Below, piece by piece: positions 3,233-22,465 of a DNA stretch of 64,000 nucleotides. The stretch spans positions 574 to 64,573 of the forward strand of contig JAZDFZ010000021.1 in assembly GCA_043807425.1 (NCBI GenBank). Reading direction: 5' to 3'. Position 1 is the first letter of the stretch. Every line of letters starts with the position of its first letter. Made by a program: the position numbers and the translations under genes. The notes under the pieces are model-generated. The model saw nothing but the letters and a program-made list of their open reading frames with translations, made no database searches and was not told the DNA's origin. This DNA is from Actinomycetota bacterium. GTDB taxonomy: Bacteria; Actinomycetota; Geothermincolia; Fen-727; Anoxymicrobiaceae.

Positions 3233-5008
3233 TCAATCACCTTTGCCGAGAAAAAACTGGTGCGGGTCGAACATCCGCGCGAAGCGAAGCTCCTCGACCG
3301 AGGGCGCCTCGATCTCCACGACGTCGTCAGCCACCTCGAGATCCCAGCCGCAGGTCTCTTTCGCGCTCGCCAGGGCCGCCTCCCTGTCCCCGTCCGCCGC
3401 CGGGAAGTAGCCGGTCAGGACCAGCTCGCCGTCCCGCTTCTCGAGCAGCCCCCTGGTGGTCACCACCGCTGTGATGCGCTCCCCGGGACAGGTCACGTAC
3501 GGCACCTTCTCCACCAGCCGGAAAGGGAGGTGATCGGTCAGGATCACCACGTCCTTCGCACCGGCCGCCACGTCCGCCGCTCCGCCTGAGCCGACCAGCA
3601 GGAGCTTCATCTCGGGTATCGCGGTCGAGTTGATGTTGCCCCTCCGGTCCACCTGCCCGGCACCCAGCGAGCCGATACACCTGTTGCTGGGGGCGCCTAC
3701 CAGCGAGCCCAGGATGTCGTTGATGTCCGTGAGCATCGTGCACTGGGGGACGTTGCGCAGGTTGAAGATGAACGGGTCGGCCGGCTGCGGGCTGTAGCCG
3801 AAGAAACCGACCTCGGCGATGAGGTCGCAGTCGTGCCCCTCCTCCGCCAGGTTGTAGTAGGCCAGCCACGCCGCCAGGTTGCTCGCACCGACTCCAGCCA
3901 GGATGGTCCGGTAGCCGTTCTCCCGCGCTTTCCGCGCTATCACCCGGGCCCCCACGCTCACCATCATCTCCACGGGGTTGTACTCCGGTCCGGGGTTCAT
4001 CCGGGGGAGTGCATCCACCAGCTCGGAGGTCCAGGAGTCGAGAGCCGACTTGCCCTTGAGGTACCAGATCTTCTCGTGGCCGAGCTTCGCCAGGTACTCC
4101 TCGTGGTTCGCGCACCCCAGGATCCACTCGTCCATCCACTCCTGGAGCCTTGCCGGGTCCTTCGCCCTCTCCCGCAGATCCATCAGGAACTCGCGGTCCA
4201 CCTCGTAGCCCTCGACCTCGCGCTCCAGGCCGTAGTTGGACATCCCCGCAGGGTGCGAGCCCATGGGCACCACGCAGACGGCGTTCACGAGGTAGGCGGG
4301 CACCTTGACAAAGTGACTGAATCGCTTCAGGAACGAGTCGTCCACCAGCTTCTCGACGGTGACTATGGTGCCCTGCCTCGCGGAGCGCGCCGAGGCGGCG
4401 GTCTCCGCGTAGGGGGGGGCGCATATCAGGTTTCCGGCCGGGTCGGCCGCCCAGCCGTGCAGGAAGGTGAGGTCCGGGACCAGAGCGCGCACGAATCCTA
4501 CGGGTCCGTCCGGGGTTTCGACCTCGAAGTAATCCTCGTTCTCATCCGCGATGGTGGTGCCCGCAAGGGACGGCGCGGGGATGCAATCGAGCCCGAGCGC
4601 CCCGGCCAGCACCCTCAGCGAAAATGACAGTATAGTCCAGTGCTCCATCTCCACGGTGCCGTCCCGGTACGCCTGCTGGTAGACGGGATTGGGCCCCGGC
4701 ATGGGGTACGCGTCGCCGTAAAAGGTGCCGATGGCCTTCTTAATGATGCCCGCCGCAAAGACGGCCGACATGTCGCCCGTGAAGCCCAGAGTGCTGATGG
4801 TGAATCCCGGATCTGTCCCCCAGAACTGCCGAGCCAACTGCTGGTACACCGCGCAGGGCCTGGCGTAGCTGTGCCCGATGTGAATGAACATCCCCGGCCG
4901 CACGAAACGGTCGATCGCGTCCTCGAGCGACATCACCTTGTCCGCGGCGTGCCCGGCACGAGAGATGCGCTGCTGCCTGGCTACCGCCTCGTCGAAAGCA
5001 CCATACAT
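3233..5008 (-). CDS. Fused alpha/beta family I CoA-transferase (glutaconate CoA-transferase-like)
   Basis: KVMSLEDAIDRFVRPG N-terminus; GAGQVDRRGNINST and GSGGAAD in the C-terminal half. ATG at 5008 follows GAGGAG. Confidence 0.8.
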   Translation of the reverse strand: MYGAFDEAVARQQRISRAGHAADKVMSLEDAIDRFVRPGMFIHIGHSYARPCAVYQQLARQFWGTDPGFTISTLGFTGDMSAVFAAGIIKKAIGTFYGDAYPMPGPNPVYQQAYRDGTVEMEHWTILSFSLRVLAGALGLDCIPAPSLAGTTIADENEDYFEVETPDGPVGFVRALVPDLTFLHGWAADPAGNLICAPPYAETAASARSARQGTIVTVEKLVDDSFLKRFSHFVKVPAYLVNAVCVVPMGSHPAGMSNYGLEREVEGYEVDREFLMDLRERAKDPARLQEWMDEWILGCANHEEYLAKLGHEKIWYLKGKSALDSWTSELVDALPRMNPGPEYNPVEMMVSVGARVIARKARENGYRTILAGVGASNLAAWLAYYNLAEEGHDCDLIAEVGFFGYSPQPADPFIFNLRNVPQCTMLTDINDILGSLVGAPSNRCIGSLGAGQVDRRGNINSTAIPEMKLLLVGSGGAADVAAGAKDVVILTDHLPFRLVEKVPYVTCPGERITAVVTTRGLLEKRDGELVLTGYFPAADGDREAALASAKETCGWDLEVADDVVEIEAPSVEELRFARMFDPHQFFLGKGD

Positions 5009-12286: not shown

Positions 12287-13744
12287 TCAGTCCAGGCGCC
12301 AGCGGTACCCGCCGGCCACATCCTCCACGCGGACGCCCAGCTCCGCGAGACCTTCCCGTATCCTGTCGGCGAGCTCGAAGTCCTTGCGGGCACGGGCCTC
12401 CTGCCTCAGCTCGCAGAGCAGGCCTACCAGCCCGTCGGCCAGGCGGGCCATCTCTCCTCCGGCCTCCTCCTCCTCGAACAGGCCCACCGATCCGCAGAGC
12501 CCCTCCAGCAGTTCCAGCGCATCACGCAGCGCGGCCTTCTCCCCCGCCGTGCTTGCCTCTGTGAGCACCGCCAGGTAGGAGTTCGTCTCGCGGATCATCT
12601 CGAACACGGAGCCAAAAGCCGCCGCCGTGTTGAAATCGTCGTCCATGTGGGCGCGGAACTCCACCTCGGTCCTCTCCAGCATGGTTCGGAATCCCCGCTC
12701 GGCCTCCGTGGGGCGCTCGTCCTCCCCGCCGACCTCAGTGTCAAAACGGGCGATTGCGTCCCGGAGGTTGAAGCGGCAGTTCTCTAAGCGCTCCAGCGCG
12801 GAGGCAGCCTCGGCGAGGCTCGTATCGGAGAAGCTCAGGGGGCTGCGGTAGTGCGTGCCCAGCATGAGCATCCTGACCGCGTCGCGGTCGAAATCGGAGA
12901 GCACCTCCCGCAGCGTCTTGATGTTGCCCAGCGACTTGGACATCTTCTCCGCGTCGATGTTCAGCATCCCGCTGTGTATCCAGTAGCGCACGAACGGCCC
13001 GGCGCCGGCCCATGCTTCGGCCTGGGCCCTCTCGTTCTCGTGGTGAGGGAACACCAGGTCGAGCCCGCCGCCGTGGATGTCGAAACCCATGCCCAGGTAC
13101 TGCACCGACATGGTCGAGCACTCCATGTGCCAGCCGGGTCTCCCCGGGCCCCAGGGGCTCTCCCACGAGGGCTCACCCGGCTTGGCCGCCTTCCACAGGG
13201 CGAAGTCCTGGGGGTCGCGCTTGCGCTCCGCGGGGTTCACGCACTCGGTCACCATCTGCTCGTCAAGCGCGCGCCCGGATAGCTTCCCGTACGAGGGGAA
13301 CTTCGCAACCTCGAAGTAGACGTCGCCCTCGGAGACGTAGGCTACGCCCTTTTCCACCAGGACTCCGATGACCTCCAGCATCTCGTTGACGTGCTCCGTG
13401 GCGCGGGGGGCGATAGTGGGCGACCTGACCCCCAGAGCCCTCATGTCCTCCTCGAAGGCCACCCGGTACTTCTCGGCGAGTTGCTCGGCCTCCAAGCCCT
13501 CCTCGCGTGCCCGACTGATTATCTTGTCGTCTATGTCGGTGACGTTCTGGGCGAAGGTGACGTCGTAGCCCGCGAACTCCATGTATCGCCGTATGAAGTC
13601 GAAGTTGAGGAAGGTGCGCGCGTTGCCGATGTGGATGTAGTTGTACACGGTCGGCCCGCACACGTACATGAGGACCCTGCCCTCCTCGCGGGTGACGAGG
13701 TCCTCCTTCCGCCGCGTCATGGTGTTGTAGATCCTGATGGCCAT
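12287..13744 (-). CDS. cysS: Cysteine--tRNA ligase
   Basis: MYVCGPTVYNYIHIGNAR, PGRPGWHMECS, FPHHENE, KMSKS. Confidence 0.98.
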   Translation of the reverse strand: MAIRIYNTMTRRKEDLVTREEGRVLMYVCGPTVYNYIHIGNARTFLNFDFIRRYMEFAGYDVTFAQNVTDIDDKIISRAREEGLEAEQLAEKYRVAFEEDMRALGVRSPTIAPRATEHVNEMLEVIGVLVEKGVAYVSEGDVYFEVAKFPSYGKLSGRALDEQMVTECVNPAERKRDPQDFALWKAAKPGEPSWESPWGPGRPGWHMECSTMSVQYLGMGFDIHGGGLDLVFPHHENERAQAEAWAGAGPFVRYWIHSGMLNIDAEKMSKSLGNIKTLREVLSDFDRDAVRMLMLGTHYRSPLSFSDTSLAEAASALERLENCRFNLRDAIARFDTEVGGEDERPTEAERGFRTMLERTEVEFRAHMDDDFNTAAAFGSVFEMIRETNSYLAVLTEASTAGEKAALRDALELLEGLCGSVGLFEEEEAGGEMARLADGLVGLLCELRQEARARKDFELADRIREGLAELGVRVEDVAGGYRWRLD

Positions 13745-13879
13745 GGTTCAACTTTGTTCACGAAACGCCGGGCTTGCTACTGCCGATAATCACAAACGGA
13801 TTAAACGAACTGAGCGTCTTTACATTATATCAATGTGAAGACTCTGGGTTAGACTGCCCTAGAGCTCAGGTATCTGGCA

Positions 13880-14839
13880 TCACTGCTTTATTGCAGGTAC
13901 ATAGATGCAGGTTTCGGGGCCGGAAAGACAGTAGACTGGCTGCAGGAACTGATTGGTCGTCTTCGAGGGGTCGGCGTAGTAGATCAGCTCCACCCGCGAG
14001 ACCTCAGGGTTCTCCACATCAGGATGGAGGTTCATCGTGTTATTGCCCTTCTCTGCGTCCTCGATTGCTTCTTTAAGCGATTTGACCTCGAACTTCTTGT
14101 AGGGAACCAGGTTTCTCATGGTGCTGTCGACGCCGATCAGCTCCCCATCGGTCCCCAGCGAAACCATGATGCGCATCCCGGGTCCGACTATTGGCCTGCC
14201 ATCGGCCTTTCTGGATATCTCCACATCCCTTTGAAGCCGGATCTTCGTGACCTGTCCATCGTCATGGTGCAAAGTCTCTCTCTGCGGACCACCGATCATC
14301 GATACATAAGCTTCATGGGGAAGGAGACCCAGTTCTTCGAGAGTGCTCATAGCAATTCTTCCAGATTCCTCAACAGAGGGGAGGTCTGGATTCTCCTGCC
14401 CGTACTTCGAGCCGATCCAGAACTGGTAGTTCCCGTTGTTGTAGTAGTAATGGAAGATGCGCCCGAAGTTCTGGTCCCCTTCAATTGCATAGTAGCTATC
14501 GTAGTCCTCGTACTGGAACGACCCCTTGAGCTTGATTTCATCCCGTTGGATTTCGTGATTTATGCCGAACTTCCGAGCAAGCATCTGTATCTCTGCCGCC
14601 CCATCAGCGATTTGCTCGAAACGATAGACGGTCAGTCTATACGGAGCCTGTGGAATATCTTTGGCGGTCAGGACCAGTCTGCCCTTCACGGGCTTGTTCG
14701 CGGCTTCAGGTGGGGCGTCCAGTGGCAGAACTGCGGCACCCCCCTTCAGGAGCAATGCGAGGACAAACGCAGTGCCGACAATTGCGACCAGCGCACCACC
14801 GATAGCAATACAGGTAGACTTGGATACTGGCTTCCTCAT
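13880..14839 (-). CDS. Membrane-anchored hypothetical protein, partner of the giant secreted protein
   Basis: N-terminal TM helix; ATGA overlap with the upstream gene; C-terminal ELIYY...LQPVYCLSG. Confidence 0.8.
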   Translation of the reverse strand: MRKPVSKSTCIAIGGALVAIVGTAFVLALLLKGGAAVLPLDAPPEAANKPVKGRLVLTAKDIPQAPYRLTVYRFEQIADGAAEIQMLARKFGINHEIQRDEIKLKGSFQYEDYDSYYAIEGDQNFGRIFHYYYNNGNYQFWIGSKYGQENPDLPSVEESGRIAMSTLEELGLLPHEAYVSMIGGPQRETLHHDDGQVTKIRLQRDVEISRKADGRPIVGPGMRIMVSLGTDGELIGVDSTMRNLVPYKKFEVKSLKEAIEDAEKGNNTMNLHPDVENPEVSRVELIYYADPSKTTNQFLQPVYCLSGPETCIYVPAIKQ

Positions 14840-17800
14840 AGCGGGGGTGGCTCCTCCTCGATGTGCAAATCGACCTCGAGGTAACCGAAGTGCATGTTGT
14901 GGTTGAGGAACAACACCTGGTAGTCCTGGCCTCGCTCCACGCTCGAGGGAACGACAACCCTGACCCTGTGCTCGTCAATGAATGCCACAGGTTGCTGTAT
15001 ATACTGCCGGGTCCCTTCAGCGCCCGTCTTTCTGAACCGGACTATGACACCTGGGTCGAACGGCTGTGGTGTTTCTCCGGGACCTCCTACGGACAACGCA
15101 GTGAATTCTACTTCCTCGCCCGGTTGCACGATGTGGTCCACAGTCACTACTGTGATGTCGCTCTTGGGTAATTCGCTGTCTGGCAATTCCACGAAGCCTC
15201 CATCATCATTGACGTAATCGCAAACCTCGAACTCCCAACTGGTGTCCGAATCGGCATTTGGGTCATCTGACTGTGGCCCGTGGCCGAAGAAAAAGTCACC
15301 GAATGAGTTCGTGGCGCCATAAACGACCGCGAGGTTGTATGGATCCCAAATGCTTCTTTCCTCCCATATTTGTGCTTCGTCCCTCCTGTCTTGGGCCTGG
15401 TTGTGATAATTCGCGAGTTTCCAGGCCTCTTTGATATTCCTTGGTCCGGGCTGAGTTATCGACCTGGCAGTTTCAGTGCCAACAACCCCATCCATCCAAG
15501 CCTTGGTTCCCATACCCATCAAGAGGTGCAGTCCCTTAGCGACTGTCACCGCGTTGAACCTCCGGTCGATATCCGGCAAGTTGGAGTAATCAGCTGGGTT
15601 GTAGGGAGTATCTTCAGGAACAACGCCCGGTTTCGCCGATCTGTCTGGAACATGAGCGGCTACATCAGCCTGGTTGTCTCCGGCAAACAGCTTGCAATTG
15701 TAGACGATCGCCCACTCCAAATCCTGGTCTCCCCAGCCCAAGCTAGATGAATGTAACACACCACCGTTTAGTCCGAGCCCATTCTGGTAGTCGATGATCG
15801 AGACTACCGAACCGGCAGCCCGTTGCAGCCACCCATGACCCGCATTCATGACCAGGTCTACATTATCGGACGAGAGGGGATCTTGACCTTCGGTTTTTGG
15901 ATCTCCGGGATTCTGGAAATAGTCTCGTGAGTCCCTCTCCCTGCCGGCAAGAAGGGGCGGATACTCCGGCTCGTTTCCTCTCCTTTGCCTTATTCTTGCT
16001 CCATCGAGGGCGAACACAGTGGCAAGCCCCTCGCATGCATCCACCGCTCCCGGTATGTTAAAGATGCTGTATGATATCCCCACCTCGGGTTGCGTTTCGT
16101 CGTAGTCATTATCTTGTTCGTGATTCTGACCAAGGCCATGCCATGGGAGAACGTCTGTTGTCTCAAAGTCAGAAACTGCGCTTCCATCGCCTGCCGGCGC
16201 CGGGCCGTTTTCTACTCCAAAGTGGCACCAGTCGTTCCACTCCGCGTTAAACGGGTTCTCCGGATCGCTGTTCAGTAACTGCACGCCGTAGTTGGAATCC
16301 CATAGATTGCAGCCATTCACGATAGGCTGGTCAGGGCGGGAGTAGTCGTCTAGGTCCACCAGGACCGCGACATCGCAATAGGAAATCGTGGTGGCTCCGG
16401 GTTCGTCGTCATCGATCCTGGTGCAAGTATCACCCGACAGCCTGATCCCGGTGCCGCCTCTATCTCCGTAGGATGTACCACCGTCTATAATGAGCTTGCT
16501 CAGAATTGGGGAACAGTTGTCCACGTTTAGGAGCGCACTCCCGGAACCACCGTAGGCGAGCCGGGTCCATTGGACGAAGCACTGGTCATTCGCCAGACTG
16601 ATTCCTCCCCAGTCGTTGTACGACGGGTAGTGAATCAGCCCATCATTACTGGTGGGTCCGCCAACCGAATCGTCATACAAGCTGGTGATGCAGATCCGGT
16701 CCTGTTGTGTACCGACGCACTGTAGCGACCCGGCGACAGTCATCCTCACATCCAGCCACTTGATGATAACGCCTGGGTCGATCACCAGGGTAGAACCGGC
16801 CGGGACCGTGAAATCATTCTCGGTCATGGTATATGGAACGAGGTTGGCCATGAAGCGAATGGAGTTGGTGGCGAACCACGAGTAGGCGGAAAGCTCAATG
16901 CCATTAATCCTGCAGCCGGTGCCACTATTGGCGAATATCTGCAGGTTCTCCAGCCCATCATCAACCCTCCCCAGGAACTCCGTGCAGTTGTTCACGGTGT
17001 TTTCAGCGACAGTGGTCATTGCATCGCACCCATCGATCTTGATCCCGTACTGACAGCTCTCGATCAGATTTCCTTGAACTGCCGGCGTCCCCCTGGTGAT
17101 CTGCACCCCCACCGCCCGCATCCCGTTGATATGCAGTCCGTTCTGTATCGTAGGGCTCCCCCCCTCGATCCAGACCCCGTAGTCTCCATCCTGCATGGAG
17201 GCGGTAGAGCCGCTCGAGTTCTCGACCAGTGCGCTGCCGTCCACCACCCTCACCGATGCCATCGCGGGTGCCGGCGGGGGATCACCGCCCAGGATCTTCA
17301 CCTGGTAGGTGGACAGGTCCCTCACAAGTGGAGAGCCGGAAAAGACATGCACGCCGTCGGAAGCGCAGCAGGATATCGAGCAGGAGGTCACCTGGTGGTC
17401 TCCACGCACCCCGATGGCGCCTCCGTCGATGGGGGCGATTCCCCCCACGTAGGAGATATCGCAGAAGGAGAGGGTCGAGGCTTGAAGCGGCTCCGTGTTC
17501 TCGAGCCTTATGCCCTTCCAATCCCCGGGATTGGGATTCTGCGCTGGAGGCAGGTTGTAGGTTTGGCCTCCCACGGTGTCGTAGATCGATGTAATGGTGA
17601 CATGCTGGTCTGAGGTGCCACCCGCCTGCAGGCGGCCCCAGACCCAGATGGTGGACTGCTCCCCGGCCTTGATCCTGGTTCCGGGCTCGATCGCCAGGGT
17701 GGCTCCGGTCGTCACCGTTATACCTGAGGGCTGACCGGTGTCGTAGAGGACGAAGGGCAGGTCGGGATTGGAGTTGTCCCACCTCATGTCCGAGGAATAG

Positions 17801-20800
17801 GTGCCCTGCACCCTTATCCCGTTTATGCCGTTGCCGTCTGAGGGGTCCTCCCCCTCGGGTCTCTTCCAGGTGTTGCCCGAAAGCTCGCTCCAGGAGCAGT
17901 CCGACATGTAGATGGTGTCTCCAGAACATGAGTGGATGCGGTTTCCGGTCACGGAGGGATATGGCTCGACGTAGCCGGGTTCCTTTGCCACCACGATCCC
18001 GGAGGCGCAGCCCGTGATGGTGTTGTTCCTGAAGGTCGGAGTGCCGCCCTTGGCCACCAGGCCCGTACCCGCAAGGCCGCTCGCGGTGCAGTCCTCCACG
18101 ACCGGCGAGCCGCCCAATACCGATACCGCGGTCTGGGTGAGGGCGCCCGAGACCTCGTCCAGTCGGTGGAAGAGGCAGTCACGGATGAGGGGAGAGCCGC
18201 CCCGGACCTCCACCCCCACCCGGGTGTAGTCGCTCATGACCGTGTTCTCTATCAGGTGGCTTCCGTCCAGCACCAGGTTCATCTCCTCGGTGCCAGACCC
18301 TCCGCCGTATCGCATCACGCAGTGGGAGAGCGTGGAGGGCTCGATCGAGTTGTAGAAGTAGACGATGAACCAGTCTCCACAGCGGGGCTGGCTCGGACCG
18401 TCCCCGTTGGTGTCCCCGTAGACAGGGTCGTCGTCCTTGAGCGAGGTGATGGTGATGGGGTCCACCGCCGTGATGTTTCCTTCTGCATCCCGGATGGCCC
18501 CATCAGCCTGGAGTACACCGTCAACGATTATGGTGGCGTTCCGGAGTCCGGATTGTGCCTTTATCATCACCCCGGGCTCGATGGTAAGCCTTGCTCCGTA
18601 GTTGATGGTCATCGGTCTGGTCAGGATGTAGGGGCTGTACCTCTTCTCCAGGCGGTAATCGGGGTCGTTGATGACCTCGGGTAGGATGCTGGGGATGTGT
18701 ACCTGAGCGGTACCAGTGACGCCTTCAAACGTCGCGTTGATCGTCCCTGTGCCCCAGCCGGTGGCGTCGAATAAACCGCTCTGAGAATCTATGGTTCCCA
18801 CCCAGGCATCGCATGACCACTCCGGGGTTATGGTCACGGGGTTTTCATCCTGGTCCCGCCCGATCGCCTCGAACTGCTGCTGCGAGCCGTTGTAGAGGGT
18901 GATGTCAGAGGGTGTGACTTCTATGGAGGTGAGGGTCTGGACGGCTGTTACGGTGAATCCGTCGGTGAGGGTACCCATGCCTGCGTCCGGGTTGATCACG
19001 GATACGCTCCAGGGGCCGGGCTCGGCCTCATAGAGGTCCAGGGTGCAGGTGATGTGCTCGTGGGAGACCACGATCACCTCCATGGCGGTGATATCTGCGT
19101 GTCCTTCCCGGGTGAGCCTGACGATCGCTCCCTGTGCGAAGCTGGAGCCGGAGACCTCGGCTGCCTCCATTACCTCGCCGGTCCGTCCCTTATCAGGGGT
19201 GATGCCTGAGACAATGGGAGCGGGATTCACGGTGAAGGCATTGGGAAGCGTCCCCTCTCCGGCATAGGTGTCTCTCACCACCAGTTCGTAGGGGCCGGGT
19301 TCGGCGTCCCTGAGGTCCAGAGTGCCGGTTATCTGCTCCTCTGAGAACGAGAGGTTGGAGGCGGTGATGGTCAGATCGCCTCTTACAAGGACCACGGTAT
19401 CGGTGTGGTCCAGGTGGGTCCCGACTATGGTCACCCTGACCTCTTGTGCTCCGCTTCCCGCACTTGCAGGGGTTATGGAAGCGGGAGATGGCGGGGGGTT
19501 GACCGTGAAGCCGTTGGGAAGGACACCGCTCTGGGAATCGGGGTTGGTCACTACCACGTCCCAGGAGCCGGAGGCGGCCTGGCTCAAGTCCAGGGTGCCG
19601 GTCATCTCCGATGTGGAGAGCACTGTCTCGTTCTCGGCTTCGATGTCGGTGTGACCCGTTCGAGAGAGCCGGAAGGAGGTCTTTTCGTCTGAGGTTCCGT
19701 TCACGAAGCCGGTCCCGGTGACCGTGACGGAGACCACGCCGTTTTCGCTGTTCGCCCAGTCGGGCTCGATCGAGGTGACGGTTGGTGGAGGAAGGGAATC
19801 GACGGTGAAGCCTCCTCCCAGGGAGCCGGAGCCGTCGTCGGGATTGGTGACGACCACGTTCCAGGCTCCGGGAGAGGCGCCGGTGAGGTCGAGGGTGCAG
19901 GTTATCTTCTGGGCCGAGACCACCACTACCTCTGTGGCGGTGATGTCGGGCTGTCCGTCGCGCGTGAGCCTGACGGTCGCACCATCCTGGAACCTGTCTC
20001 CGGCGAGGTCCGTTATCTGGACTATCTCCCCGGTCCTGGCGCTTGAAGGGGTGATAGAGGTGAGAACAGGTCCCGGGATAACGGTGAAGCCCCCGGCGAG
20101 CAGGCCCCTTCCACCGTCGGGGTTGGTCACCACCACGTCCCAGACCCCGGGGGTAGCTCCTGTCAGGTCGAAGGTGCAGTTGATTGTGTAATAGGAGAGG
20201 ACGTTCTCTCCTTCCGCCTGGATGGAGGGCTTTCCCTCCATCTCCAGGGAGACCTGGGCTCCGGGTGAGAAGAGGTTCCCATTAACCGTCGCCGGTTGGT
20301 TGGCCTTGCCGCTCGGCGCGCTGTTCGGGATGATCCCGTAGACCCTGGGGTACTGGTTGACGGTGAAGCCACGGGCAAGTGTTGCGGTTCCTCCGTCCAG
20401 GTTGGTGACCACCAAGTTCCAGGGGCCGGCGGAGGCTCCCACCAGGTCGAACGTGCACGTTGCATGTGTGTGCGATTCATCTACCGAGGTGGTAGAGGCC
20501 CATATGGTATTAGAGCCCCTCTGGAGCTTGAAGGCGGCCTGGAAATCGAAGTTCGCTCCGGTGATGACCGCTTCGAAGGAGGGGTTGCCGCTTCCCGCGT
20601 TGTCGGGCGTGATGGAGAGTATGGTGGGGTTGGAGGTGACCGTGAAGCCGCCTGTGAGCAGGGATCTTCCCCCGTCGGGGTTGATGACGTGGACATCCCA
20701 TGCGCCGAGGGCGGCGTTCGAGAGGTCGAGGGACAGGCTTATGGTGGTGCCGTAGCGTACCTCTAGGACTGTAGCTATTATGTCCGGGCAACCAGACCGG

Positions 20801-21663
20801 GTGAGCTTCACCAAGAGACCTTCCTCGAAGTGCCGTCCACGGATCTGGGCTATGAAGGCGGGGTTCCCGGTGCCGCCTGAGGACGGTCTTATGGAGCGCA
20901 CCTCGGGGGCGGGATTCACGTAGAAGCCGAACTGGAGGGTCGCGCTGCCCCCGCCCGGATTTGTGACCACCACGTCGTAGTACCAGTCGTCGGCTCCAGT
21001 GAGGTCGAAGACGCCGTCTATCCTGGTGGGTGAGACCACGGTTGCCGGATTTGCCACGATGTCGTCTCGGCCGTTGCGCCTCAGGGCTACTTGCGCCCCG
21101 GTCACGAAGTTGGCACCGGTGAGGATTGTGTACACGGCGGGGTTTCCGCTTCCGGCGTTGTCCGGGGTGATGGAGGAGATGGTGGGGAGCGGGGCGAGGA
21201 CGGAGAATCCGTTATGAAGCGTACCCCTTTTTCCGTCGGGGTTGATGACCACCACGTTCCAGGACCCGGGTGGAGCTCCTGAGAGGTCCAGGGTGCAGGT
21301 TATCTTCTTTGAAGAGACCACCCGGACGTACTTCGCCTCGATGGAGTTCTGGCCGCTGCGGGTGAGCCTCACGGAAGCGCCGTCTCGAAAGCCGGTACCG
21401 GAGAGTTTCGTGATGCGCACGCTGGTGTCTCCGCTGCGAGCGGTGTTGGGGGTGATGGAGGTGACGGTGGGAGCGGGGGCGCGGTGTTCAGTAAGCGTCG
21501 AGTTCAGAGAGGATGCCAGGCCCCCCCCCATTGGAGTTTGTACTGGATCATGATCCGCCGCCAGGGCTCCGGTTGAAGATACCAGCAATGACGTGAGGAA
21601 CAGGAATAGTACGATGAAGAAGAATAGCGTGGTCCCGGTTCTGGAATAGGAATTGCCGCTCAT
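14836..21663 (-). CDS. Giant secreted protein (2275 aa): signal peptide, 9 IPT/TIG repeats, Big-2-like domain, 3 parallel beta-helix modules, DUF6345-like domain, C-terminal Ig-like domain
   Basis: Nine P-x-(V/I)-x-SI-x-P repeats; LTSIEVTP; three PY...G..L.I.PG starts; NAGHG and IVYNC motifs; GGGGAGG RBS. Confidence 0.85.
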   Translation of the reverse strand: MSGNSYSRTGTTLFFFIVLFLFLTSLLVSSTGALAADHDPVQTPMGGGLASSLNSTLTEHRAPAPTVTSITPNTARSGDTSVRITKLSGTGFRDGASVRLTRSGQNSIEAKYVRVVSSKKITCTLDLSGAPPGSWNVVVINPDGKRGTLHNGFSVLAPLPTISSITPDNAGSGNPAVYTILTGANFVTGAQVALRRNGRDDIVANPATVVSPTRIDGVFDLTGADDWYYDVVVTNPGGGSATLQFGFYVNPAPEVRSIRPSSGGTGNPAFIAQIRGRHFEEGLLVKLTRSGCPDIIATVLEVRYGTTISLSLDLSNAALGAWDVHVINPDGGRSLLTGGFTVTSNPTILSITPDNAGSGNPSFEAVITGANFDFQAAFKLQRGSNTIWASTTSVDESHTHATCTFDLVGASAGPWNLVVTNLDGGTATLARGFTVNQYPRVYGIIPNSAPSGKANQPATVNGNLFSPGAQVSLEMEGKPSIQAEGENVLSYYTINCTFDLTGATPGVWDVVVTNPDGGRGLLAGGFTVIPGPVLTSITPSSARTGEIVQITDLAGDRFQDGATVRLTRDGQPDITATEVVVVSAQKITCTLDLTGASPGAWNVVVTNPDDGSGSLGGGFTVDSLPPPTVTSIEPDWANSENGVVSVTVTGTGFVNGTSDEKTSFRLSRTGHTDIEAENETVLSTSEMTGTLDLSQAASGSWDVVVTNPDSQSGVLPNGFTVNPPPSPASITPASAGSGAQEVRVTIVGTHLDHTDTVVLVRGDLTITASNLSFSEEQITGTLDLRDAEPGPYELVVRDTYAGEGTLPNAFTVNPAPIVSGITPDKGRTGEVMEAAEVSGSSFAQGAIVRLTREGHADITAMEVIVVSHEHITCTLDLYEAEPGPWSVSVINPDAGMGTLTDGFTVTAVQTLTSIEVTPSDITLYNGSQQQFEAIGRDQDENPVTITPEWSCDAWVGTIDSQSGLFDATGWGTGTINATFEGVTGTAQVHIPSILPEVINDPDYRLEKRYSPYILTRPMTINYGARLTIEPGVMIKAQSGLRNATIIVDGVLQADGAIRDAEGNITAVDPITITSLKDDDPVYGDTNGDGPSQPRCGDWFIVYFYNSIEPSTLSHCVMRYGGGSGTEEMNLVLDGSHLIENTVMSDYTRVGVEVRGGSPLIRDCLFHRLDEVSGALTQTAVSVLGGSPVVEDCTASGLAGTGLVAKGGTPTFRNNTITGCASGIVVAKEPGYVEPYPSVTGNRIHSCSGDTIYMSDCSWSELSGNTWKRPEGEDPSDGNGINGIRVQGTYSSDMRWDNSNPDLPFVLYDTGQPSGITVTTGATLAIEPGTRIKAGEQSTIWVWGRLQAGGTSDQHVTITSIYDTVGGQTYNLPPAQNPNPGDWKGIRLENTEPLQASTLSFCDISYVGGIAPIDGGAIGVRGDHQVTSCSISCCASDGVHVFSGSPLVRDLSTYQVKILGGDPPPAPAMASVRVVDGSALVENSSGSTASMQDGDYGVWIEGGSPTIQNGLHINGMRAVGVQITRGTPAVQGNLIESCQYGIKIDGCDAMTTVAENTVNNCTEFLGRVDDGLENLQIFANSGTGCRINGIELSAYSWFATNSIRFMANLVPYTMTENDFTVPAGSTLVIDPGVIIKWLDVRMTVAGSLQCVGTQQDRICITSLYDDSVGGPTSNDGLIHYPSYNDWGGISLANDQCFVQWTRLAYGGSGSALLNVDNCSPILSKLIIDGGTSYGDRGGTGIRLSGDTCTRIDDDEPGATTISYCDVAVLVDLDDYSRPDQPIVNGCNLWDSNYGVQLLNSDPENPFNAEWNDWCHFGVENGPAPAGDGSAVSDFETTDVLPWHGLGQNHEQDNDYDETQPEVGISYSIFNIPGAVDACEGLATVFALDGARIRQRRGNEPEYPPLLAGRERDSRDYFQNPGDPKTEGQDPLSSDNVDLVMNAGHGWLQRAAGSVVSIIDYQNGLGLNGGVLHSSSLGWGDQDLEWAIVYNCKLFAGDNQADVAAHVPDRSAKPGVVPEDTPYNPADYSNLPDIDRRFNAVTVAKGLHLLMGMGTKAWMDGVVGTETARSITQPGPRNIKEAWKLANYHNQAQDRRDEAQIWEERSIWDPYNLAVVYGATNSFGDFFFGHGPQSDDPNADSDTSWEFEVCDYVNDDGGFVELPDSELPKSDITVVTVDHIVQPGEEVEFTALSVGGPGETPQPFDPGVIVRFRKTGAEGTRQYIQQPVAFIDEHRVRVVVPSSVERGQDYQVLFLNHNMHFGYLEVDLHIEEEPPPL

Positions 21664-21735
21664 CCCCGCCTCCCCTTCGGTCGATTGCCCCCGGTCCCGG
21701 CAGCATCAGGCATAGTGCTGCCGGGGTCAGATTTG

Positions 21736-21762
21736 TTATCGACAGAAAATGGGGTCTTCTTA
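21736..21762 (-). promoter_or_regulatory. Possible sigma28/FliA/WhiG-type promoter for the giant gene
   Basis: TAAG-N15-GTCGATAA versus consensus TAAA-N15-GCCGATAA. Confidence 0.35.
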
Positions 21763-21787
21763 AGCGTCTTTTAAAGCGAATATTCTG

Positions 21788-22465
21788 TCAGGACCCGTCG
21801 TCCAGGCGTTTTTCGATGCGGTCCAGGCGGCGCTCGATGGTGTTGAACATGTCCAGCACCGGGTCGGGCAGGTCCTCGTGGTGCAGGTCGATCGGGCTGA
21901 TGCGCTCGCCCGAGCAGACCGTCACGCGACCCGGGACCCCAACCACCGTGCAGTTGGGAGGCACGTCCTGGATTACGACCGCCCCGGCGCCCACCTTGGA
22001 GCTCTCCCCCACCGTGATCGGACCCAGCACGCTGGCACCCGCGGCGATGACCACGTTGTCCTCGATGGTGGGGTGGCGCTTGCCCTTCTCCTTGCCCGTG
22101 CCTCCCAGCGTGACCCCCTGGAACAGGGTCACGTTCTTGCCGATCTCGGTCGTCTCGCCGATGACCACGCCCATGCCGTGGTCAATGAAGAAGCCGTGCC
22201 CTATCGTCGCGCCCTGGTGTATCTCTATGCCGGTGAGCATGCGGGCGAACATGGAGATGGCCCTGGGCAGCCCCGGCACCTTCCGTCGCCAGAGGTAGTT
22301 GGCCACGCGGTGCAGCCAGACCGCGTGCAGGCCCGGGTAGGTGAGGATCACCTCGAGCGTGTTGGTGGCCGCCGGGTCCCGGTCCTTGACCGCCTCGACG
22401 TCGGAGCGCAACACGGCAACGGCGTCGCTCAAGAACTCCCCGAGCGTCCTGTGAGCTTCAGCCAC
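21788..22465 (-). CDS. cysE: Serine O-acetyltransferase
   Basis: [43 protein letters not shown]. Confidence 0.96.

What the first reader, a model, noticed from the sequence alone, without database searches (positions are those of the whole stretch)
13880..21663. Two-gene surface system inserted between cysE and cysS: giant stalked protein plus coupled membrane partner
Seen: about 8 kb splits the normally adjacent cysE and cysS. Gene 1 (2275 aa) has a signal peptide, nine IPT/TIG repeats, a Big-2-like domain, three beta-helix modules, a DUF6345-like domain and a terminal Ig-like domain. Gene 2 (319 aa, N-terminal TM) overlaps it by ATGA. I see no LPxTG, SLH or lipobox anchor on gene 1. Inference: a long extracellular stalk presents a catalytic tip, while the partner anchors, chaperones, inhibits or is cleaved by it. 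I know of no characterised system with this architecture.
Basis: partly seen in the sequence, partly recalled or inferred. Interest (0 to 1): 0.75.

Follow-up and report, generated by a model that had tools for sequence, protein, structure and literature searches.

The report
Giant surface protein with caspase-like domain and keeper
An 8-kb two-gene insert between cysE and cysS encodes a 2,275-residue exported protein ending in an uncharacterised caspase-like (DUF6345) domain, plus a membrane-anchored propeptide-like partner that accompanies that domain wherever it occurs and probably folds, holds and silences it.

Summary
cysE and cysS are adjacent in 7 of 7 other genera of the family, so the 8 kb is a genus-specific insertion.

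- **DUF6345:** a profile of 22 domains aligns to Peptidase_C14 with hhalign probability 81% (E 1.3e-5). The invariant His1943-Gly and Cys1990 sit on the caspase dyad. Two accepted clan CD families compared the same way score 88%.
- **Partner:** it has no Pfam family. Its model folds like YycI, the YpeB PepSY domains and M4/M36 propeptides.
- **Co-occurrence:** the partner sits directly downstream of DUF6345 in 13 of 13 subfamily loci. In 11 of 11 assessable other actinobacterial DUF6345 loci it is fused or adjacent.

The best reading is a clan-CD-like cysteine peptidase held by a cognate membrane-anchored chaperone-inhibitor and tether. A polymorphic-toxin/immunity reading stays open. No activity or interaction was tested, and the AlphaFold model of the DUF6345 domain failed.

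The parts
14836..21663 (-). Gene 1: a 2275-aa exported giant protein (P0001).
   Evidence: The RBS and ATG are conserved in the sister species and in the paralogue. dN/dS is 0.06-0.29.
21556..21663 (-). Signal peptide (residues 1-36): a long hydrophobic core and an A-L-A/A cleavage motif. It could act as a signal anchor if it is not cleaved.
   Evidence: This is the only hydrophobic segment of the protein. Cleavage is inferred.
18949..21477 (-). Nine TIG / 'choice-of-anchor Z' Ig-like repeats (residues 63-905).
   Evidence: NF058597 matches in 9 stretches, E 3.4e-48. Pfam TIG also hits. There is no DNA-level tandem repeat.
18700..18930 (-). Big_2 domain (residues 912-988).
   Evidence: 26.3 bits against a cut-off of 22.8 when scanned alone.
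16114..18666 (-). Three related right-handed beta-helix modules (about residues 1000-1315, 1316-1625 and 1626-1850). Each opens with a 'PG..IK...ITS..DD...GDW.GI' cap.
   Evidence: Pfam Beta_helix/NosD hits modules 1 and 2. Internal BLASTP gives E 6e-20, 9e-11 and 2e-7. The closest outside relatives are the beta-helix parts of giant RHS proteins.
15214..16113 (-). DUF6345 domain (residues 1851-2150): a candidate clan-CD-like cysteine peptidase.
   Evidence: Pfam PF19872 scores 48.6-54.9 bits against a cut-off of 26.9. hhalign to Peptidase_C14 gives Prob 80.7%, E 1.3e-5, with controls.
15835..15837 (-). Codon of His1943, in the motif DLVMNAGHG.
   Evidence: Invariant in 22 DUF6345 domains. It aligns with the catalytic His-Gly of C14 and CHAT.
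15694..15696 (-). Codon of Cys1990, in the motif WGDQDLEWAIVYNC.
   Evidence: Invariant in 22 DUF6345 domains. It aligns with the catalytic Cys of C14 and CHAT.
14839..15213 (-). C-terminal Ig-like beta-sandwich (residues 2151-2275).
   Evidence: This is the only reasonably modelled part of the AF2 model, with block-mean pLDDT of 52-86. Foldseek returns only Ig/FN3-like hits.
13880..14839 (-). Gene 2: the 319-aa partner (P0002). It has an N-in single-pass TM helix (residues 7-32) and an extracytoplasmic PepSY/YycI-like ectodomain.
   Evidence: The AF2 model has pLDDT 85.7. Foldseek finds YycI (1.7e-7), YpeB C-terminal domain (7e-5) and weak M36/M4 propeptide hits. No Pfam, NCBIfam or PDB sequence hit was found.
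14836..14839 (-). ATGA stop/start overlap (translational coupling), with GAGGAGGAG 13-21 nt upstream.
13824..13832 (-). TGATATAAT extended -10 element in the gene 2-cysS spacer: a candidate promoter that restores cysS expression downstream of the insert.
   Evidence: Sequence. The element and its flanks are conserved in the sister species. Function is inferred. The generic -35/-10 scan did not list it.
21693..21728 (.). 14-bp hairpin in the cysE-gene 1 spacer, just upstream of the gene 1 RBS.
   Evidence: No T-run follows it on the coding strand, and it is only partly conserved in the sister species. Its role is unknown.

Best explanation
**Proposed mechanism.** This is a self-contained two-gene surface module.

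- **Gene 1** is exported through Sec. It is built from a long Ig-like stalk (9 TIG + Big_2), three beta-helix modules, a caspase-fold His/Cys peptidase domain of Pfam family DUF6345, and a terminal Ig-like domain.
- **Gene 2** is translationally coupled to gene 1. It is a type II membrane protein whose ectodomain has the PepSY/YycI-type fold.

**How it works.** The ectodomain binds the DUF6345 domain as that domain emerges from the translocon. It helps the domain fold and keeps the active site shut, acting as a trans-acting prodomain or chaperone-inhibitor. Gene 1 has no anchor of its own, so the partner also tethers the giant protein's C-terminal end to the membrane. Release from the partner would free the peptidase. 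The freed enzyme would then cut in cis (shedding the stalk) or in trans.

**Shown here:**
- the gene structure and domain content;
- the insertion between cysE and cysS;
- strict co-occurrence and fusion of the two modules;
- the fold of the partner, from a confident model;
- a profile-level similarity of DUF6345 to Peptidase_C14, with the dyad in register.

**Inferred, not shown:** binding, inhibition, tethering, proteolytic activity and substrates.
For: **1. Dyad.** His1943 (in [GS]H[GAT]) and Cys1990 are invariant in 22 DUF6345 domains. These come from this subfamily and from 12 other actinobacterial loci.

**2. Fold.**
- hhalign of that alignment against 16 Peptidase_C14 domains fetched gives Prob 80.7%, E 1.3e-5 over 117 columns. 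Strand 1, helix 1, the His-Gly and the Cys all align in register.
- The positive control, CHAT against C14 (same clan), scores 88% and E 2.9e-6.
- The reversed C14 alignment gives P 0.39.
- Of 120 column shuffles, 119 scored at most 18.6 against the real score of 43.3. The other was a 4-column numerical artefact.
- The unrelated partner alignment against C14 gives P 0.38.
- CHAT aligns the same two residues, but only weakly (P 0.036).

**3. Partner fold.** The model has pLDDT 85.7 and a TM helix at residues 7-32. Foldseek finds YycI 2o3o (E 1.7e-7), the YpeB C-terminal PepSY domains 5boi (7e-5), and weak hits to M36 and M4 propeptides (4k90_B, 3nqz_A).

**4. Co-occurrence.** Thirteen of 13 subfamily loci have the partner immediately downstream, often overlapping the stop codon. 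The genome itself holds a second, diverged pair on another contig.

**5. Rosetta-stone fusions.** In other Actinomycetota the partner-like module has three arrangements:
- N-terminal to DUF6345 in the same secreted protein, as signal peptide-module-DUF6345, which is a zymogen layout (L087-L091);
- C-terminal to it (L092, L093, L098);
- the next gene (L094-L096).

That is 11 of 11 assessable loci, with no hit to any other of 699 ORFs.

**6. Co-divergence.** Identities of the DUF6345 region and of the partner track each other across loci (r = 0.97, 7 pairs).

**7. Precedent.**
- YpeB's PepSY domains act as chaperone-inhibitor of the operon-encoded SleB and form a membrane complex with it (bioRxiv 10.64898/2026.06.01.729290).
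- From my own knowledge, FTP-PepSY propeptides do the same in M4 peptidases.
Against: - The AlphaFold model of the DUF6345 region failed (pLDDT 43, 7-sequence alignment). The caspase fold therefore rests on profile comparison and motif logic only.
- Neither single-sequence nor profile searches of the PDB link DUF6345 to any solved structure.
- The partner has no sequence match to the Pfam PepSY model. Its best structural match has TM-scores of only 0.42-0.54.
- No co-fold, binding or activity data exist.
- The module might bind somewhere other than the DUF6345 domain, for example the terminal Ig-like domain.
- Several features fit a conflict system equally well. The DUF6345-Ig-partner cassette shows deep synonymous divergence. 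Partner fragments lie orphaned in three loci. The beta-helix scaffold has relatives in RHS toxins.
Confidence: 0.55

Rival explanations
1. **Polymorphic-toxin-like antagonistic effector plus immunity protein.** The giant protein is a Sec-exported delivery scaffold. Its C-terminal caspase-like domain is a toxin or a releasing peptidase aimed at competitors. The membrane-anchored partner is the cognate immunity protein that protects the producer's own envelope.
For: - **Architecture:** signal peptide, long repeat scaffold, C-terminal enzyme, then a small overlapping downstream gene.
- **Scaffold relatives:** the closest outside relatives of the beta-helix region are giant RHS proteins (beta-helix x8 + DUF6531 + RHS/YD shell), at 25-26% identity over 93-96% of the region, E about 1e-90.
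- **Paralogue pattern:** the two paralogues keep 74-82% identity in TIG repeats 6-8 but only 16-38% through most of the beta-helix region (two windows reach 46-50%), DUF6345 and the Ig domain. Their partners are 38-42% identical.
- **Cassette divergence:** against the sister species, dS is 1.4-1.5 for DUF6345 + Ig and 0.9 for the partner. It is 0.24-0.45 elsewhere (0.03 in the short Big_2 domain), as if the 3' cassette had been exchanged. GC also drops there to about 0.54.
- **Orphans:** partner fragments or tandem partner paralogues occur in L046, L004 and L009.
- **Literature:** Zhang et al. 2012 (PMC3482391) list caspase-like domains both as releasing peptidases and as C-terminal toxins of polymorphic toxins.
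Against: - In 8 of 11 other actinobacterial DUF6345 loci the partner-like module is fused to DUF6345 in one secreted polypeptide. That is normal for a prodomain and odd for an immunity protein.
- The same C-terminal family is kept at both loci and in both species, rather than swapped for unrelated toxin families.
- No RHS, HINT or pre-toxin domain, dedicated secretion system or cassette array lies at either locus of this genome.
- Both genomes are metagenome bins, and their nucleotide identity is mosaic even inside cysS. The dS contrast could therefore partly be an assembly or recombination artefact.
Confidence: 0.22
2. **Anchor or regulator only.** The partner only docks the anchor-less giant adhesin or enzyme to the membrane. 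Alternatively, like YycI, it signals to another membrane protein. In either case it does not control a peptidase. On this reading DUF6345 is a non-catalytic binding module, or its His/Cys serve another chemistry such as transamidation.
For: - The best Foldseek hit is YycI, a membrane-anchored regulator of a histidine kinase.
- Gene 1 has no anchor of its own.
- Clan CD includes transamidases (my own knowledge).
- No activity is known for any DUF6345 protein.
Against: - No kinase or other signalling gene is linked at any of the loci examined.
- The His and Cys are invariant across 22 diverged domains.
- The fused secreted forms (signal peptide-module-DUF6345) have no TM anchor. Tethering therefore cannot be the module's general role.
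Confidence: 0.13
3. **Chance motif.** DUF6345 is not caspase-like at all, the His/Cys pattern is coincidental, and the pair has some unrelated function.
For: - The AF2 model failed.
- No PDB sequence link exists.
- The CHAT comparison is only P 0.036.
- The alignments used are shallow (22, 20 and 16 sequences).
Against: - The C14 comparison scores as well as a known same-clan pair. It puts four structural elements and both catalytic residues in register, and the shuffles and reversal fail.
Confidence: 0.1

Closest known systems
Clan CD cysteine peptidases: Peptidase_C14 (metacaspases/orthocaspases), CHAT, C13 legumain
   Same: - The order is His-Gly, then about 47 residues, then Cys, each at the end of a hydrophobic strand.
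- Profile-profile similarity to C14 gives Prob 81%.
- A related beta-helix giant, P0040, carries a Peptidase_C13 domain in the equivalent position.
   Different: - No Pfam, MEROPS-type or PDB sequence link exists.
- The domain is extracytoplasmic and sits at the end of a 2,275-aa surface protein.
- It is controlled by a PepSY-like module. I know of no case of that for clan CD.
SleB-YpeB of Bacillus (an enzyme with a membrane-anchored PepSY partner in one operon)
   Same: - It is a bicistronic enzyme-then-partner operon.
- The partner has an N-terminal TM anchor and extracytoplasmic PepSY-type domains.
- The proposed role is chaperone-inhibitor.
- The YpeB C-terminal domain is a Foldseek hit of the partner model (E 7e-5).
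   Different: - SleB is a peptidoglycan lytic transglycosylase, not a peptidase.
- There is no sequence similarity, and no giant stalk.
- The context is sporulation.
FTP-PepSY propeptides of M4 (thermolysin/vibriolysin) and M36 (fungalysin) metallopeptidases
   Same: - The propeptide acts as intramolecular chaperone and inhibitor.
- The fused actinobacterial DUF6345 proteins have the same signal peptide-module-catalytic domain order.
- Weak Foldseek hits were found to 4k90_B and 3nqz_A.
   Different: - The catalytic class differs: metallo against Cys/His.
- Here the module is a separate, membrane-anchored gene product.
- The structural hits are weak (E about 0.02).
Polymorphic toxin systems with caspase-like releasing or toxin domains, and RHS proteins with beta-helix N-terminal regions (Zhang et al. 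2012, PMC3482391)
   Same: - A Sec signal, a long repeat scaffold, a C-terminal caspase-like domain and a small cognate gene immediately downstream.
- The beta-helix scaffold is homologous to that of RHS giants.
- The C-terminal cassette is diverged.
   Different: - No RHS, HINT or pre-toxin domains are present.
- The same C-terminal family occurs everywhere.
- The partner-like module is often fused to the enzyme in relatives.
YycI/YycH (WalK regulators)
   Same: YycI is the best structural match of the partner (2o3o, E 1.7e-7). It has the same N-terminal TM anchor and extracytoplasmic topology.
   Different: No histidine kinase lies in any neighbourhood examined. The obligate link here is to DUF6345 instead.

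Membership tests
Pfam DUF6345 (PF19872) | Score above the gathering threshold of the family HMM. | tested here: met
   48.6 bits for the whole protein and 54.9 bits for the C-terminal piece, against a cut-off of 26.9. All 7 subfamily members match, best E 4e-22. Only profile positions about 51-217 of 221 are covered, in two stretches.
Clan CD (caspase-hemoglobinase fold) cysteine peptidases | A catalytic His (usually His-Gly) followed by a catalytic Cys, each after a hydrophobic beta-strand, and both conserved. | tested here: met
   His1943 and Cys1990 are invariant in 22 domains. They lie 47 residues apart. They align to the C14 and CHAT dyads.
Clan CD (caspase-hemoglobinase fold) cysteine peptidases | The caspase-hemoglobinase alpha/beta fold. 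| tested here: inconclusive
   hhalign against Peptidase_C14 gives Prob 80.7%, E 1.3e-5, and the controls are negative. But the AF2 model failed (pLDDT 43) and no PDB sequence hit exists.
Clan CD (caspase-hemoglobinase fold) cysteine peptidases | Peptidase or transamidase activity that depends on the dyad. | not testable with these tools
   This needs expression and an assay.
PepSY-type propeptide/inhibitor modules (PepSY, YpeB C-terminal domain, YycI-like) | The fold: a helix packed on an antiparallel sheet, repeated in tandem, in an extracytoplasmic protein. | tested here: met
   The model has pLDDT 85.7. Foldseek finds YycI (1.7e-7), YpeB C-terminal domain (7e-5) and weak M36/M4 propeptide hits. 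TM-scores are only 0.32-0.54.
PepSY-type propeptide/inhibitor modules (PepSY, YpeB C-terminal domain, YycI-like) | A sequence match to the Pfam PepSY model or a related model. | tested here: not met
   None of the 11 family members gives a credible Pfam hit at E up to 10, and none hits PepSY. NCBIfam gives no hit.
PepSY-type propeptide/inhibitor modules (PepSY, YpeB C-terminal domain, YycI-like) | Binds and inhibits or chaperones its cognate enzyme. | not testable with these tools
   Only genomic evidence exists: 13/13 and 11/11 co-occurrence, plus fusions.
Polymorphic toxin-immunity systems | The C-terminal toxin domain is swapped among otherwise conserved proteins, with matched downstream immunity genes and orphan cassettes. 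| tested here: inconclusive
   The 3' cassette is diverged (dS 0.9-1.5 against 0.24-0.45 for most other segments). Orphan partner fragments exist. But the C-terminal family is always the same, and fused enzyme-partner forms exist.
Polymorphic toxin-immunity systems | RHS, filamentous or pre-toxin domains, a HINT-like releasing domain, or a dedicated secretion partner. | tested here: not met
   The Pfam scans of gene 1 and its neighbours show none. Only the beta-helix scaffold is shared with RHS giants.
NCBIfam NF058597 choice-of-anchor Z repeat proteins | Repeats above the model cut-off. | tested here: met
   161.6 bits against a cut-off of 30, in 9 stretches.
Sortase / SLH / lipoprotein-anchored surface proteins | An LPxTG-type signal, SLH domains or an N-terminal lipobox. 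| tested here: not met
   The regular-expression and Pfam scans are negative.

The most novel reading that the evidence does not exclude
DUF6345 plus its PepSY-like module would be a widespread, undescribed two-part zymogen system of clan-CD-type cysteine peptidases. In this genus it has been mounted on a scaffold related to RHS toxins. There it would work as a polymorphic, exported antagonistic effector. The membrane-anchored PepSY-like partner would be a new type of immunity protein. On this reading the prodomain of the fused forms was split off and turned into self-protection.
Probability: 0.15. Interest if true: 0.8.

Novelty: new variant of a known kind. Interest (0 to 1): 0.6.

Why it matters
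- **A function for DUF6345.** No function is known for this family; it appears in the literature only as a name in one proteome table. The evidence here points to a caspase-fold cysteine peptidase and names the two residues to mutate.
- **A wider PepSY principle.** The PepSY 'chaperone-inhibitor' principle is known for metallopeptidase propeptides and was recently proposed for SleB-YpeB. It would now extend to a different catalytic class, in fused and split forms side by side. That makes a natural experiment on how prodomains become separate regulators, anchors or immunity proteins.
- **An operon interrupted.** An 8-kb accessory module sits inside the conserved gltX-cysE-cysS housekeeping operon, apparently with a replacement promoter for cysS.
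- **Limits.** All of this is prediction from uncultured genomes.

Tried and rejected
- **AlphaFold2 on the DUF6345 + Ig piece.** With a 7-sequence alignment it gave pLDDT 43. Foldseek on that model returns only Ig-like hits from the terminal domain.
- **Sequence links to solved structures.** phmmer and profile hmmsearch against the PDB found nothing credible.
- **Wider homologue searches.**
  - phmmer of the C-terminal piece against 1.84 billion representatives found only 8 proteins.
  - The alignment search added nothing.
  - The genome-contig scan found only the sister species.
  - Two metagenome scans found nothing.
- **hhalign against CHAT.** With the narrow alignment it gave P 0.47. With the wide alignment it gave P 0.036. 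The dyad is in register but this is too weak alone.
- **Mobility signatures.** The 9-nt AAAGACGCT shared by the two spacers is not conserved in the sister species, so it is not a target-site duplication. There are no DNA tandem repeats and no integrase or transposase at this locus.
- **Regulatory RNA.** There is no T-box or other Rfam hit. A fluoride-riboswitch match inside gene 1 (20 bits against a gathering score of 34) is chance.
- **Defence systems.** PADLOC gave no hits.
- **Generic promoter scan.** It found nothing in either spacer. The TGATATAAT element was read by eye.

Full report
**1. What is there**

Gene 1 is 14836..21663 (2275 aa, P0001) and gene 2 is 13880..14839 (319 aa, P0002). 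They overlap by ATGA, and a GAGGAGGAG Shine-Dalgarno lies inside the end of gene 1.

The flanks are cysE (21788..22465) and cysS (12287..13744). The wider order is gltX-cysE-[insert]-cysS-rlmB-yacP. From my own knowledge, this is the conserved Gram-positive housekeeping cluster.

Gene 1 reads as follows.
- **Signal peptide.** It holds the protein's only hydrophobic segment.
- **Nine repeats of about 93 aa.** They match Pfam TIG and, in nine stretches, NCBIfam NF058597 'choice-of-anchor Z repeat' (E 3e-48).
- **Big_2.** It scores above its cut-off when scanned alone.
- **Three beta-helix modules.** They are homologous to each other (E 6e-20, 9e-11, 2e-7).
- **DUF6345.** It scores 48.6 bits against a cut-off of 26.9.
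- **A terminal beta-sandwich.** This is the only reasonably modelled part of its AlphaFold model. Foldseek matches it only to Ig/FN3 domains.

There is no LPxTG, SLH or N-terminal lipobox. The protein is very acidic, with 269 D+E against 128 K+R.

**2. It is an insertion, and it is real**

- Pfam DUF6345 is present in only 2 of 61 related genomes: this one and its sister species.
- In seven other genera of the same family cysE and cysS are neighbours. The gap is 17-88 nt in six and 579 nt in one.
- The sister species (an Actinomycetota metagenome bin labelled 'Modern_marine') has the same cysE-giant-partner-cysS order.
- Against it, dN/dS is 0.06-0.29 in every domain; only the 40-residue TM segment of the partner is higher, at 0.67. 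Both genes are therefore under purifying selection.
- GC falls from 0.62-0.70 to about 0.54 over the 3' part of gene 1 and over gene 2.
- The spacer in front of cysS carries a TGATATAAT extended -10 element that is conserved in the sister species. I infer that it replaces the operon promoter for cysS.
- I found no integrase, target duplication or tandem DNA repeat.

**3. A second copy**

The genome has a paralogous pair on another contig, between selA and hydrogenase genes. It is a 2333-aa giant (P0014) with the same architecture, plus a 335-aa partner (P0015). The sister species has both pairs too.

The paralogous giants are 74-82% identical in TIG repeats 6-8. They are mostly only 16-38% identical from the beta-helices onward. 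Their partners are about 38-42% identical.

**4. The partner**

It has no Pfam, NCBIfam or PDB sequence match. Only nine relatives turned up among 5.8 billion clustered proteins.

Its AlphaFold model is confident, with pLDDT 85.7. It shows a TM helix at residues 7-32 followed by alpha/beta lobes. Foldseek gives these matches:
- YycI (2o3o), E 1.7e-7;
- an uncharacterised Eubacterium protein (5coz);
- the PepSY-containing C-terminal domain of YpeB (5boi), E 7e-5;
- more weakly, the propeptides of M36 and M4 metallopeptidases.

TM-scores are modest (0.32-0.54). I therefore call this a PepSY/YycI-like fold, not membership of the PepSY family.

**5. The link between the two genes**

Every partner homologue whose context could be read lies directly after a DUF6345-bearing gene. 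So do the partners next to the further DUF6345 relatives found by phmmer. Together with the two pairs in each of the two genomes, that is 13 of 13 loci.

I then looked outside the subfamily.
- A scan of 401 Actinomycetota genomes found 13 further genomes with canonical DUF6345.
- An HMM of the partner family, and then a five-round jackhmmer search, were run against all 699 ORFs of those 13 loci.
- They hit only DUF6345 proteins themselves or the gene immediately after them.

The module takes three arrangements there:
- fused N-terminally, as signal peptide-module-DUF6345 (L087-L091);
- fused C-terminally (L092, L093, L098);
- encoded as the next gene (L094-L096).

That is 11 of 11 assessable loci. 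The other two were a gene cut by a contig end and a degenerate fragment.

Across loci the divergence of the DUF6345 region and of the partner track each other (r = 0.97 over 7 pairs). Fusion plus strict adjacency is strong genomic evidence that the two modules act on each other. It does not show how they do so.

**6. What DUF6345 is**

The AlphaFold run on the C-terminal 426 residues failed (pLDDT 43). Sequence and profile searches of the PDB were empty. I therefore tested the caspase idea by profile comparison.

- **Dyad conservation.** In an alignment of 22 DUF6345 domains, one His (in [GS]H[GAT], His1943 here) is invariant. So is one Cys 47 residues later (Cys1990). Each follows a hydrophobic strand.
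- **Comparison with C14.** Against 16 Peptidase_C14 domains taken from actinobacterial genomes, hhalign gives probability 80.7%, E 1.3e-5 over 117 columns. The first strand, first helix, His-Gly and Cys are all in register.
- **Positive control.** CHAT against C14, two accepted clan CD families built the same way, scores 88% and E 2.9e-6.
- **Negative controls.**
  - A reversed C14 alignment gives P 0.39.
  - The partner alignment against C14 gives P 0.38.
  - Of 120 column shuffles, 119 scored at most 18.6, against 43.3 for the real alignment.
  - The remaining shuffle was a four-column numerical artefact.
- **Comparison with CHAT.** It aligns the same two residues but only at P 0.036.

I read this as good but not conclusive evidence for a clan-CD-like Cys/His peptidase.

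Earlier notes of this scan reached the same idea for DUF6345 proteins in other phyla from structure predictions. I treat those as leads. The tests above are independent of them.

**7. How it most likely works**

This section is inference.
- The two proteins are made together, through translational coupling.
- The giant is exported by Sec.
- The partner inserts with its ectodomain outside the cell.
- The ectodomain binds the DUF6345 domain. That domain lies near the C-terminus, so it is among the last parts to cross the membrane. The partner helps it fold and blocks it, as PepSY propeptides do for M4 peptidases and as proposed for YpeB and SleB.
- Gene 1 has no anchor. The partner would therefore also hold its C-terminal end at the membrane, leaving the TIG array distal. 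That is the opposite of the 'catalytic tip' picture.
- What releases the enzyme, and what it cuts, is unknown. It could cut itself to shed the stalk, or cut other proteins.
- The acidic WGDQDLEW motif just before the Cys strand suggests a basic P1 preference, as in metacaspases. This is speculation.

**8. The main rival**

The layout also resembles a polymorphic toxin with its immunity gene.

*For the rival:*
- The nearest outside relatives of the beta-helix region are giant RHS proteins.
- Caspase-like domains are known as releasing peptidases or C-terminal toxins in such systems (PMC3482391).
- The paralogues diverge in their C-terminal halves.
- The DUF6345-Ig-partner stretch has three- to six-fold higher synonymous divergence from the sister species than most of the rest of the locus.
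- Orphan partner fragments or tandem partners occur in three loci.

*Against the rival:*
- Most other DUF6345 proteins carry the module fused in the same polypeptide.
- The C-terminal family is always the same.
- No RHS, HINT or pre-toxin domain is present.
- Both genomes are bins with mosaic identity even in cysS.

The two readings share the core claim of a cognate inhibitor of a caspase-like enzyme. They differ in the enzyme's target.

**9. Verdict**

- **Observation:** confirmed.
- **Interpretation:** partly supported.
- **Novelty:** neither family is described in the literature I could search. The logic has precedents, so I rate it a new variant of a known kind.
- **Interest:** moderately high.

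Noticed in passing
window 13824-13832 (-), spacer 13745-13879: A TGATATAAT extended -10 element lies between gene 2 and cysS. It is conserved with its flanks in the sister species, so it may be a replacement promoter for cysS after the operon was split.
   Followed up: partly
window 21693-21728: A 14-bp hairpin sits just upstream of the gene 1 RBS. No T-run follows it on the coding strand, and it is only partly conserved in the sister species. It may belong to one of the palindromic repeat families noted elsewhere in this window.
   Followed up: no
L044 (G003:C63), cysE-cysS spacer: In one other genus of the family the cysE-cysS gap is 579 nt rather than the 17-88 nt seen in six other genera. 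It holds a tRNA-like 3' end (GGTTCGATTCCCAC...) and a roughly 45-nt direct repeat, so the same site has taken a different insertion.
   Followed up: no
window 12287-22465 against L001 2406-12557: Nucleotide identity to the sister species is strongly mosaic. Patches of 97-100% sit next to stretches of 56-80%, even inside cysS. The cause could be recent recombination between the two lineages or strain-mixed metagenome assembly.
   Followed up: partly
L045 about 3560-3590 (G001 ortholog of gene 1); P0016: The sister species' gene has a G10 homopolymer that breaks the frame after the signal peptide, so gene callers start it internally. The public call for this window's own gene (P0016, 2194 aa) also starts 81 residues late and loses the signal peptide.
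   Followed up: partly
L004 2891-4436; L007 3093-4196; L009 679-2511; L046 12806-12985: In related metagenome loci the partner is followed by a membrane CHAP-domain protein (L004, L007). L004 also has an orphan partner N-terminal fragment next to a DDE transposase. L009 has a second tandem partner paralogue. The sister species' locus B (L046) has an orphan partner C-terminal fragment.
   Followed up: partly
L049 878-3991: A 425-aa 'stand-alone' DUF6345 + Ig protein (P0018) lies directly after an IS (rve integrase) and is followed by a partner gene. It looks like the 3' remnant of a giant gene cut by the IS.
   Followed up: partly
P0040 (2838 aa, JGI metagenome): A beta-helix giant related to the scaffold of gene 1 carries a Peptidase_C13 (legumain, clan CD) domain near its C-terminus. 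This is a second, independent pairing of this scaffold with a caspase-fold enzyme.
   Followed up: no
window 18442-18489 (+): A fluoride riboswitch match of 20 bits (gathering score 34) lies inside gene 1 on the opposite strand. I judged it to be chance.
   Followed up: yes
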